From a virus (taxonomy: Duplodnaviria; Heunggongvirae; Uroviricota; Caudoviricetes): DNA of 16,099 nucleotides. A program made the position numbers and the translations under genes. The notes below the pieces were generated by a model. It was not told where the DNA came from. It did not search any database and saw only the letters and a program-made list of their open reading frames with translations. The stretch covers positions 1 to 16,099 of IMG/VR virus record IMGVR_UViG_2563366820_000001; one strand, written 5' to 3'. Shown in pieces: positions 8,425-8,713 of the stretch; within the stretch, counting starts at the first letter, position 1, and every line of letters begins with the position of its first letter.

Positions 8425-8713
8425 GGTAGACGGGTAGATATTGGGTAGATGCTAGTTTTATGAATGCCTACCCGCTGAAACCCTTGCGCCACAAGGGATT
8501 CAGCGAAACAGGTAGATAGGGTAGACAATATCTCGCTTAAAAACTTTTTTACGCAGCGAAAGGAAAATACAGGTTAGAGAATGGAGAGTTAAAAGAAAGT
8601 CACTTTTACTATCTACCCTATCTACCTAATAGATAAAAGTTGTTTTTTATCATTGTGTTAAGTGGGTAGATAACCGTTTCTTTGTTGTCTACCTGTTATC
8701 TACCTTGTCTACC
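8425..8713 (+). repeat. Iteron cluster: GGTAGA(C/T) direct copies (8425, 8433, 8444, 8511, 8520, 8665) and inverted TCTACC copies (8612, 8621, 8688, 8699, 8708), an 11/12-bp hairpin CTGAAACCCTTG-cgcca-CAAGGGATTCAG (8475..8503) and an AT-rich stretch (8530..8610); candidate origin of replication
   Basis: Repeats counted directly; located immediately 3' of the primase/rep gene, as for satellite and plasmid origins. Confidence 0.6.

What the first reader, a model, noticed from the sequence alone, without database searches (positions are those of the whole stretch)
8425..8713. Iteron-type origin immediately 3' of the primase, with a strong hairpin and AT-rich stretch
At least eleven GGTAGA/TCTACC hexamer-core iterons in both orientations flank an AT-rich stretch, alongside an 11/12-bp hairpin (8475..8503). 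This is the expected signature of a replication origin bound by the adjacent initiator. The hairpin lacks a T-tail, so it is more likely structural or a binding site than a terminator.
Basis: partly seen in the sequence, partly recalled or inferred. Interest (0 to 1): 0.45.

Follow-up and report, generated by a model that had tools for sequence, protein, structure and literature searches.

The report
Replication origin of a phage satellite
The repeat cluster is very probably the replication origin of an Escherichia phage-inducible chromosomal island, built like the tested EcCICFT073 origin and like phage P4's origin, so it is an ordinary member of a known kind, with two extra orphan origins stacked behind it.

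Summary
About 0.08 would be expected by chance. The hairpin is real but is not conserved in relatives.

The window is a Gram-negative phage-inducible chromosomal island (PICI). The adjacent 583-aa protein is an SF3 helicase. Its C-terminus is homologous to the origin-binding domain of phage P4 alpha (PDB 1KA8).

In 19 related loci the same position holds about 11-13 short repeats. Their sequence changes with the wing segment of that domain.

The right half (8612-8713) copies the P4 ori layout almost base for base in spacing. The left half resembles a P4 crr unit.

EcCICFT073, whose pri-rep-ori was tested experimentally, has the same iterons with the two halves in the opposite order.

The origin reading is therefore supported as a new member of a known kind. 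Function was not tested here.

Also, the "primase" has only a small Toprim-like N-domain.

The parts
6656..8407 (+). Pri-Rep initiator gene (583 aa). Domains: Toprim-like N-domain at aa 1-142, D5_N at aa 152-282, SF3 helicase P-loop at aa 315-416, and a P4-alpha-type origin-binding winged helix at aa 487-577 (nt 8114-8386).
8425..8550 (.). Left ('crr-like') origin unit. It has three direct iterons (8425, 8433, 8444), one inverted mutated iteron (8467-8472), a 38-nt spacer, two direct iterons (8511, 8520), and an A5CT6 tract at 8539-8550.
   Evidence: The tail of the unit (inverted iteron, a spacer of about 36 nt, two direct iterons, then an AnCTn tract) recurs in the P4 crr units, L003, L007, L012, CFT073 and L022.
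8473..8505 (.). GC-rich hairpin (13 of 14 bp stem, 5-nt loop) in the spacer of the left unit. It is specific to this lineage.
   Evidence: I4. The free energy is -14.3 kcal/mol with z = -6.6 in the window and L001. The hairpin is weak or absent in L002, L003, CFT073, L007 and L012.
8551..8611 (.). Junction spacer between the two units (about 34% GC). It probably derives from the RBS and start region that follows the origin in the ancestral unit order.
   Evidence: Its composition is given. The derivation from a downstream gene start is inferred by eye from the alignment with CFT073/L003, where the AnCTn tract is followed by the next gene's RBS.
8612..8713 (.). Right ('P4-ori-like') origin unit. 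It has two inverted iterons (8612, 8621), a 38-nt spacer of 21% GC (8627-8664) that is the candidate unwinding element, one direct iterons (8665), and three inverted iterons (8688, 8699, 8708).
   Evidence: Start-to-start spacing is 9/44/23/11/9. The annotated P4 ori type-1 repeats have spacing 10/43/22/11/10. This half alone is conserved at about 78% in about 97 further E. coli genomes.
8724..9131 (+). 3' remnant (136 codons) of a RepA/AAA_25-type initiator gene, with the N-terminal 335 codons missing.
   Evidence: It is annotated as an incomplete 'helicase RepA family protein' in NZ_CP049201. It aligns to residues 336-470 of the intact 470-aa RepA of L005.
9132..9575 (.). Orphan origin of the RepA-type module. 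It has AAGTGGGGA iterons (four exact forward copies, one inverted copy, plus degenerate copies) in 33%-GC DNA.
   Evidence: In L005 the same sequence follows the intact RepA gene.
9576..9953 (.). Orphan origin of a third module. It has pairs of 11-bp-spaced GGTAGAC(A)GT iterons in 30%-GC DNA, just upstream of the ProQ/FinO gene.
   Evidence: There are 7 exact GGTAGA copies at 9611-9942. The region is 95-96% identical to the DNA directly 3' of a 601-aa primase allele (50% identical to the window protein). It matches in 105 E. coli genomes.

Best explanation
Window 8425-8713 is the cognate replication origin of a Gram-negative phage-inducible chromosomal island (PICI).

Proposed mechanism. After helper-phage induction the island excises. 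Its Pri-Rep protein (6656-8407) is a self-loading SF3 helicase. The protein binds the 12 GGTAGAYA iterons through its C-terminal winged-helix origin-binding domain. The iterons form two six-iteron units in mirror-image orientation. Binding assembles helicase rings on the two units. The AT-rich DNA inside the right unit (8627-8664), and possibly the A5CT6 tract, then melts, and bidirectional theta replication starts.

Shown here: the repeats, their selective conservation, the homology of the protein's domains, the co-variation of iteron sequence with the wing of the binding domain, and the identity of layout with P4 ori and with the region 3' of pri-rep in EcCICFT073.

Inferred: binding, the stoichiometry of one hexamer per six-iteron unit, the melting site, and who makes the primers.
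For: 1. Enrichment and position: 11 exact copies against 0.08 expected, starting 17 nt after the stop codon.

2. Selection: iteron positions are 66/66 identical to L002 while other positions are 148/224 identical, Fisher P = 8e-11.

3. Initiator: residues 487-577 match the P4 alpha origin-binding domain 1KA8 (E 6.7e-8). Residues 226-440 match the SaPI5 self-loading helicase 7OLA (E 2.5e-14).

4. Family-wide pattern: in 16 of 19 loci with a homologous gene, the 350 bp after the stop codon holds the most repeated hexamer of the locus, and it ties in 2 more. Five different motifs occur: GGTAGA, GGTGAACA (the P4 type-1 repeat), ATGAACACC, GGTATACAC and CGGACAGT.

5. Co-variation with the wing of the binding domain:
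- L004 (GGTAGAC) against L012 (GGTGAACA): domain core 86% identical, wing 15%.
- L016 against L015: core 86%, wing 30%.
- L008 against L009: wing differs by two residues and the iterons differ.

6. Layout: the right unit has spacing 9/44/23/11/9 against 10/43/22/11/10 in P4 ori.

7. EcCICFT073 has the same iterons and units. The window aligns to it at 57-60% identity once its halves are swapped, against 21% unswapped. Its pri-rep-ori supported plasmid maintenance, and the ori and rep mutants reduced or abolished it (PMC6092414).

8. SaPI origins follow the same rule: 6-12 iterons downstream of rep, with an AT-rich centre, bound by a C-terminal winged helix (PMC9371898).

9. A 10.8-kb circular record, NZ_CP148328, is a whole related PICI. 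Its only recognisable replication gene is this type of protein, followed by the same array layout.
Against: - No replication or binding experiment exists for this sequence.
- One of the 12 iterons is mutated in the window (8467-8472).
- The order of the two units is swapped relative to EcCICFT073 and most relatives, so function in this arrangement is inferred only from conservation in two lineages (the window and L002).
- Two further iteron arrays lie 0.4-1.2 kb downstream. One of them (9576-9953) shares the GGTAGA core, so which array fires cannot be decided from sequence.
- The protein lacks P4 alpha's primase domain, so the priming step is unexplained.
Confidence: 0.85

Rival explanations
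1. The array is only an auxiliary cis element: a crr-like enhancer, or a copy-number 'handcuffing' site that titrates Pri-Rep. Initiation would take place elsewhere, for example in the more AT-rich GGTAGAC array at 9576-9953.
For: P4 needs a second iteron region (crr) besides ori. The left unit resembles a crr unit. Cluster B shares the GGTAGA core and is 30% GC, against 39% for cluster A.
Against: The right unit of cluster A reproduces the P4 ori layout itself, not just crr. Relatives L002 and L001 lack cluster B entirely and keep cluster A. Cluster B is the post-stop array of a different primase allele, 50% identical in protein and 36-40% in the binding domain.
Confidence: 0.07
2. The repeats are an operator or roadblock array that regulates transcription from the replication gene into the downstream ProQ/FinO-PerC operon. 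They would be bound by Pri-Rep or another island protein and have no origin function.
For: The array sits between two co-oriented genes in a unidirectionally transcribed island (PMC6092414).
Against: No promoter-like or terminator-like site lies in 8400-8720, and the scan counts are at or below shuffle expectation. The homologous arrays in P4 are annotated as replication elements. The EcCICFT073 ori mutant reduced plasmid maintenance. A regulatory side effect is not excluded.
Confidence: 0.04
3. The array is a decayed relic, or a packaging or partition site unrelated to the adjacent protein.
For: The locus is visibly mosaic, with a truncated RepA gene and two orphan arrays next to it. One iteron is mutated.
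Against: The gene is full length. All 11 exact iterons are invariant at 34% spacer divergence. The motif tracks the binding-domain wing. A different repeat array at 13067-13345, next to an HTH gene, is a better candidate for a packaging site.
Confidence: 0.03

Closest known systems
EcCICFT073 pri-rep/ori (Gram-negative PICI replicon; Fillol-Salom et al. 2018, ISME J, PMC6092414)
   Same: The island has the same gene order (int, alpA, icd-like, DUF4222, pri-rep, origin). The initiator is 71% identical. The GGTAGA iterons are the same, and so are the two six-iteron units with the same internal spacers and A/T tracts. The origin lies immediately 3' of the gene.
   Different: The two units are in the opposite order. 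The window and L002 have left unit then right unit. CFT073, L003, L007, L011-14 and L022 have right unit then left unit. The window spacer carries a strong hairpin that CFT073 lacks. The window also has two extra orphan origin cassettes downstream.
Phage P4 alpha protein with ori and crr (type-1 repeats TGTTCACC)
   Same: The initiator is 40% identical over the helicase and origin-binding parts and matches 1KA8. The right unit has the same 2-1-3 iteron layout and near-identical spacing to P4 ori. The left unit ends like a crr unit, with an iteron pair followed by an AnCTn tract. P4 crr also lies directly 3' of alpha. Some relatives (L011-14, L022) even use the P4 repeat GGTGAACA.
   Different: The iteron is GGTAGAYA, not GGTGAACA. 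The ori-like and crr-like units are adjacent in about 290 bp instead of 4.5 kb apart. The protein lacks alpha's 326-aa N-terminal primase region and has a 142-aa Toprim-like domain instead. The element is a PICI, not a P4-like satellite.
SaPI Rep/ori (staphylococcal pathogenicity islands; PMC9371898)
   Same: There are 6-12 short iterons immediately downstream of rep, in both orientations around AT-rich DNA. They are recognised by a C-terminal winged helix of a self-loading SF3 helicase. The helicase domain is homologous to SaPI5 PriRep, 7OLA.
   Different: The host lineage differs. There is no detectable similarity of the iterons. The two-unit P4-like internal layout has not been described for SaPIs in the text read.
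Iteron plasmid origins (pPS10, RK2, R6K, F type)
   Same: Repeated initiator-binding sites lie next to AT-rich DNA.
   Different: Here the repeats are 6-8 bp in both orientations rather than tandem 17-22-bp direct repeats. The initiator is a helicase, not a WH1-WH2 Rep protein. There is no DnaA-box enrichment: 38 matches against 37 expected in the window, and one 1-mismatch match in the array.

Membership tests
Gram-negative PICI origin (EcCICFT073 type) | Lies immediately 3' of the pri-rep gene in an island with int, alpA and unidirectional gene order | tested here: met
   The first iteron is 17 nt after the stop codon. Integrase, AlpA, AntA, Icd-like, DUF4222, primase, ProQ and PerC are all on the + strand.
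Gram-negative PICI origin (EcCICFT073 type) | Two sets of short iterons flanking AT-rich DNA | tested here: met
   There are 6 + 6 iterons, with AT-rich tracts at 8539-8550 and 8627-8664.
Gram-negative PICI origin (EcCICFT073 type) | Sequence homology to the region 3' of pri-rep in EcCICFT073, whose pri-rep-ori was tested | tested here: met
   The iterons are the same. Identity is 57-60% after swapping the halves, against 21% unswapped.
Gram-negative PICI origin (EcCICFT073 type) | Supports Rep-dependent replication | not testable with these tools
   This was shown only for EcCICFT073 (PMC6092414).
Phage P4 ori/crr | Initiator with an alpha-type helicase and origin-binding domain | tested here: met
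   The protein is 40% identical to alpha 327-763 and matches 1KA8 at E 6.7e-8.
Phage P4 ori/crr | Type-1 repeat TGTTCACC/GGTGAACA | tested here: not met
   The window uses GGTAGAYA. The relatives L011-14 and L022 do use GGTGAACA.
Phage P4 ori/crr | The 3-1-2 iteron layout of ori with its spacing | tested here: met
   Spacing is 9/44/23/11/9 against 10/43/22/11/10 in P4.
Phage P4 ori/crr | ori and crr are separate regions several kb apart | tested here: not met
   Both unit types are adjacent within 289 bp.
Phage P4 ori/crr | Alpha N-terminal primase domain | tested here: not met
   [not shown]
SaPI-type origin | 6-12 iterons downstream of rep, at least two on each side of AT-rich DNA in opposite orientation, and a Rep protein with a C-terminal winged helix | tested here: met
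   The definition is taken from PMC9371898.
Iteron plasmid origin (WH-Rep type) | Tandem direct repeats of 17-22 bp, DnaA boxes and a WH1-WH2 Rep protein | tested here: not met
   The repeats are 6-8 bp in both orientations. DnaA boxes are not enriched. The initiator is an SF3 helicase.

The most novel reading that the evidence does not exclude
The island keeps three different origin cassettes in a row: its own, a RepA-type origin and a third primase-type origin. The two orphans would be retained because they let the island be replicated in trans by initiators of co-resident or incoming satellites, or let it titrate those initiators as decoys. That would be origin piracy or competition between phage satellites. 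A weaker version is that cluster B, which shares the GGTAGA core, acts as a distant crr-like partner of cluster A, recreating the P4 ori/crr arrangement.
Probability: 0.12. Interest if true: 0.55.

Novelty: new member of a known kind. Interest (0 to 1): 0.25.

Why it matters
As an origin it adds little. PICI origins of this design, with an iteron core shared with the EcCICFT073 locus read here, are published and one has been tested.

The comparative work gives three useful by-products.

1. The Gram-negative PICI origin turns out to be a compact fusion of a P4-ori-like unit and a P4-crr-like unit. [quoted passage not shown]

2. Natural wing swaps in the origin-binding domain go with iteron switches. 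L004 against L012 is one case, and L008 against L009 differ by only two wing residues. These give ready-made predictions for which residues read the iteron.

3. Replication modules (helicase, binding domain and origin) are exchanged as cassettes behind a constant Toprim-like N-domain. These exchanges leave orphan origins behind, which could matter for incompatibility or cross-mobilisation between satellites.

Tried and rejected
- An Rfam scan of 8200-10100 at E <= 1 gave only two chance microRNA hits, so no known RNA is present.
- The promoter and terminator scan of 8300-10050 found nothing in 8400-8720, with counts at or below shuffle expectation. The hairpin is not a terminator.
- DnaA boxes are not enriched.
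- Hairpin conservation was tested in L002, L003, L007, CFT073 and L012. It is not conserved and shows no clean compensatory changes, so I dropped it as a functional part of the origin.
- I looked for homology between the N-terminal 142 aa and the P4 alpha primase region or any PDB sequence. Pfam at E <= 10, hhalign and a profile search of the PDB found none. Only the fold search gave a modest Toprim signal.
- A PADLOC scan of the unknown accessory genes gave no hits.
- I considered the second array at 13067-13345 as an alternative origin. I rejected it because it follows an HTH gene, does not track the initiator, and P4 and EcCICFT073 point to the post-pri-rep array.
- The pN/pS of the RepA remnant (0.029/0.195 against intact RepA) cannot separate current constraint from divergence accumulated before truncation, so I drew no conclusion from it.
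- The iteron sequences shown in Fig. 2a of PMC6092414 are not held as text, so I compared with the CFT073 genome directly instead.

Full report
**1. Observation**

GGTAGA occurs 24 times in the 16.1-kb window on both strands. Dinucleotide-preserving shuffles give 4.25 +/- 2.0, and none of 200 reached 24.

Eleven copies lie in 8425-8713. Five are on the plus strand at 8425, 8433, 8444, 8511 and 8520. Two are on the minus strand at 8612 and 8621. One is on the plus strand at 8665. Three are on the minus strand at 8688, 8699 and 8708. The expectation for a 289-bp stretch is 0.076 (Poisson P about 1e-20). Shuffling the region itself gives at most 3.

A twelfth copy at 8467-8472 (CCTACC) has one mismatch. 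It is exact in a relative.

The array starts 17 nt after the stop codon (8405-8407) of the 583-aa ORF 6656-8407.

The hairpin is real. Its arms are 8473-8486 and 8492-8505, with 13 of 14 pairs and a 5-nt loop. As DNA its free energy is -14.3 kcal/mol, z = -6.6. It has no T-tail, and no terminator-like or promoter-like site lies in 8400-8720.

AT-richness is local:
- The central 76-nt spacer is 34% GC.
- The A5CT6 tract lies at 8539-8550.
- The spacer 8627-8664 is 21% GC.
- The window as a whole is 46% GC.

**2. Context**

The window is a phage-inducible chromosomal island (PICI) of the Gram-negative type, inserted next to proA and tRNA-Thr. All of the following genes are on the plus strand:

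| Coordinates | Gene |
|---|---|
| 1611-2825 | integrase |
| 3944-4141 | AlpA |
| 4220-5020 | AntA |
| 5782-6147 | Icd-like (named so in relatives) |
| 6345-6659 | DUF4222 |
| 6656-8407 | the 'primase' |
| 9954-10505 | ProQ/FinO |
| 10502-10789 | PerC |
| 11853-12524 | DUF2213 |

Six complete E. coli genomes carry this origin region at 99% identity or more. Nothing is annotated there.

**3. The adjacent protein**

Pfam finds D5_N, DUF5906 (the SF3 helicase P-loop) and Pox_D5. Against the PDB, two matches stand out:
- Residues 226-440 match the SaPI5 primase-helicase 7OLA (E 2.5e-14).
- Residues 487-577 match 1KA8, deposited as the 'putative P4-specific DNA primase' (E 6.7e-8). From my own knowledge this is the origin-binding domain of P4 alpha.

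The protein is 40% identical to P4 alpha residues 327-763. It has nothing corresponding to alpha's first 326 residues.

So the protein is clearly an origin-binding helicase. Whether it is a primase is open.

**4. Relatives: conservation**

In E. coli JNU (L002, protein 91% identical) the array lies directly between the gene and ProQ, with the same layout. All 66 bases of the 11 iterons are identical to the window. Only 148 of 224 other positions are identical (Fisher P = 8e-11). This is the signature of selection on the repeats themselves.

**5. Relatives: co-variation**

I examined 19 loci with homologous genes: E. coli genomes, 13 other enterobacterial species from the GTDB scan, CFT073, and one 10.8-kb circular record. 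In 16 of them the 350 bp after the stop codon holds the most repeated hexamer of the locus, and it ties in 2 more. The motif differs by lineage:

| Motif | Loci |
|---|---|
| GGTAGA | window, L002, L003, L007, L018, CFT073 |
| GGTAGAC | L004, L010, L016 |
| GGTGAACA (the P4 type-1 repeat) | L011-14, L022 |
| ATGAACACC | L006, L009, L017 |
| GGTATACAC | L008 |
| CGGACAGT | L015 |

The motif follows the roughly 20 residues after the conserved 'EYGxEY' of the origin-binding domain, which I call the wing:
- L004 (GGTAGAC) and L012 (GGTGAACA) are 86% identical in the domain core but 15% in the wing.
- L016 and L015 are 86% identical in the core and 30% in the wing.
- L008 and L009 differ by two wing residues and have different iterons at the same scaffold positions.

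This is strong indirect evidence that the adjacent protein reads these repeats.

**6. Anatomy and comparison with P4**

The GenBank annotation of P4 places crr directly 3' of the alpha gene. It places ori 4.5 kb away, with six type-1 repeats arranged 3-1-2.

The window's right unit has two inverted iterons, a 38-nt AT-rich spacer, one direct iteron and three inverted iterons. Its start-to-start spacing is 9/44/23/11/9. P4 ori has spacing 10/43/22/11/10.

The left unit has three direct iterons, one inverted iteron, a 38-nt spacer, two direct iterons and then A5CT6. It ends like each P4 crr unit, where an iteron pair is followed by A8CT6.

The PICI origin is therefore a compact fusion of an ori-like unit and a crr-like unit. 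Each unit has six iterons. From the homology to hexameric SF3 helicases, I infer that each unit loads one ring and that the two mirror-image units give a head-to-head pair. This is not shown.

By analogy with the AT-rich spacer at the same place in P4 ori, the 21%-GC spacer 8627-8664 is the most likely melting site. This too is inferred.

**7. Comparison with the tested PICI origin**

EcCICFT073 Pri-Rep is 71% identical to the window protein. The 290 bp after its gene contain the same GGTAGA iterons and the same two units, but in the order right unit then left unit. With its halves swapped, the window aligns to CFT073 at 57-60% identity. Unswapped it aligns at 21%.

Most relatives have the CFT073 order. 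The window and L002 have the permuted order.

Fillol-Salom et al. [quoted passage not shown] They showed that the EcCICFT073 pri-rep-ori segment maintains a temperature-sensitive plasmid. The rep mutant gave no colonies and the ori deletion significantly reduced them.

SaPI origins follow the same rule, and SaPI Rep proteins bind them through a C-terminal winged helix (PMC9371898).

**8. The hairpin**

The hairpin lies in the spacer of the left unit. At the equivalent place, the DNA-folding results in relatives are:
- L002: -5.3 kcal/mol (z = -0.6)
- L003: -2.8 kcal/mol (z = +0.5)
- CFT073: -8.3 kcal/mol (z = -1.4)
- L007: -8.1 kcal/mol (z = -2.1)
- The P4-type relative L012: unstructured (z = -0.1)

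The spacer sequence is partly homologous in L007. The stem is not maintained by compensatory changes. I treat the hairpin as lineage-specific and of unknown, possibly no, function.

**9.

Right after the last iteron, 8724-9131 is the last 136 codons of a RepA/AAA_25-type helicase gene. It is annotated as a truncated pseudogene in NZ_CP049201. It aligns to residues 336-470 of the intact 470-aa protein in L005.

That remnant is followed by the RepA module's own AT-rich origin, with AAGTGGGGA iterons, at 9132-9575.

Next, 9576-9953 is a third array of paired GGTAGAC(A)GT repeats in 30%-GC DNA. In 105 E. coli genomes this sequence lies directly 3' of a different primase allele of 601 aa, 50% identical to the window protein.

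The three module types occupy the same slot between DUF4222 and ProQ in different islands. The RepA-type and SF3-type initiators share the same N-terminal domain at 71% identity. This suggests cassette exchange by recombination at that domain.

The window keeps one complete module and the origins of two others. Whether the orphans still work, or whether the window's protein uses cluster B, cannot be decided from sequence.

**10. Rivals**

- A purely auxiliary or copy-control role is unlikely, because the right unit reproduces P4 ori itself and relatives without cluster B keep cluster A.
- A purely transcriptional role has no support from the promoter and terminator scan.
- No known RNA family matches.
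- DnaA boxes are not enriched.
- A separate array of AAAGTGTCAA repeats at 13067-13345, next to an HTH gene, is a better candidate for a packaging site.

**11. Verdict**

The origin interpretation is supported by homology, selective conservation and co-variation, but it was not tested functionally here.

It is a new member of a known kind. Interest is low to moderate.

The by-products may be of more use than the origin call itself. They are the equivalence to P4 ori and crr, the unit permutation, the natural wing and iteron switches, the shared Toprim-like N-domain, and the stacked orphan origins.

Noticed in passing
window 8724-9575: This is a truncated RepA/AAA_25-type initiator gene (last 136 codons, reading frame still open) followed by that module's own origin with AAGTGGGGA iterons in 33%-GC DNA. 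It is an orphan origin cassette. The intact module is in L005 (NZ_CP137737).
   Followed up: partly
window 9576-9953: This is a third iteron array, with pairs of GGTAGAC(A)GT repeats 11 bp apart in 30%-GC DNA. It is 95-96% identical to the DNA that directly follows a different 601-aa primase allele in 105 E. coli genomes. Here it has no cognate gene, but it shares the GGTAGA core with the island's own origin.
   Followed up: partly
[not shown]
   Followed up: partly
window 8425-8713 versus L021 9997-10285 (EcCICFT073): The two six-iteron units of the origin are in the opposite order in the window and L002 compared with EcCICFT073, L003, L007, L011-14 and L022. This is a circular permutation of the origin. 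The junction spacer 8551-8611 looks like a remnant of the RBS and start of the gene that follows the origin in the other order.
   Followed up: partly
window 13067-13345: This is a second, unrelated repeat array: AAAGTGTCAA(G/C), with six exact AGTGTCAA copies (five direct, one inverted). It lies directly 3' of the 174-aa HTH gene 12531-13055. The same array is present in L001, L002 and L005. Other PICI types have different motifs at the analogous right-end position (L003 GCGGGTTA x6, L006 ACTGCGCA x8, L009 CACCAGCA x7). It may be a packaging or terminase-related binding site.
   Followed up: partly
L008 4765-5080 versus L009 4765-5080: These are two nearly identical origin scaffolds. The binding-domain cores are 98% identical and the wings differ by two residues (T to N, V to M). 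They carry different iterons at the same positions, GGTATACAC against GGTGTTCAT. This is a natural specificity switch.
   Followed up: no
L022 (NZ_CP148328.1, 10,790 bp circular 'plasmid'): A record deposited as a plasmid is a complete PICI, with int, AlpA, Icd-like, DUF4222, a primase homologue and a capsid fusion gene. It has no plasmid replicon type, and GGTGAACA iterons in the same two-unit layout follow its primase gene. It is either an episomal satellite or an excised form captured by assembly.
   Followed up: partly
window 13462-16099 and 2872-3723: These are low-GC (33-40%) accessory genes at both ends of the island. They include a DUF4747 protein (14607-15500) and a 283-aa ORF between int and alpA with only weak bZIP-like hits. 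None has a PADLOC match.
   Followed up: no
window 8882-8890 (minus strand): This is the single perfect DnaA-box consensus (TTATCCACA) of the window. It lies inside the RepA remnant. The window-wide count of near-matches is at chance level.
   Followed up: no
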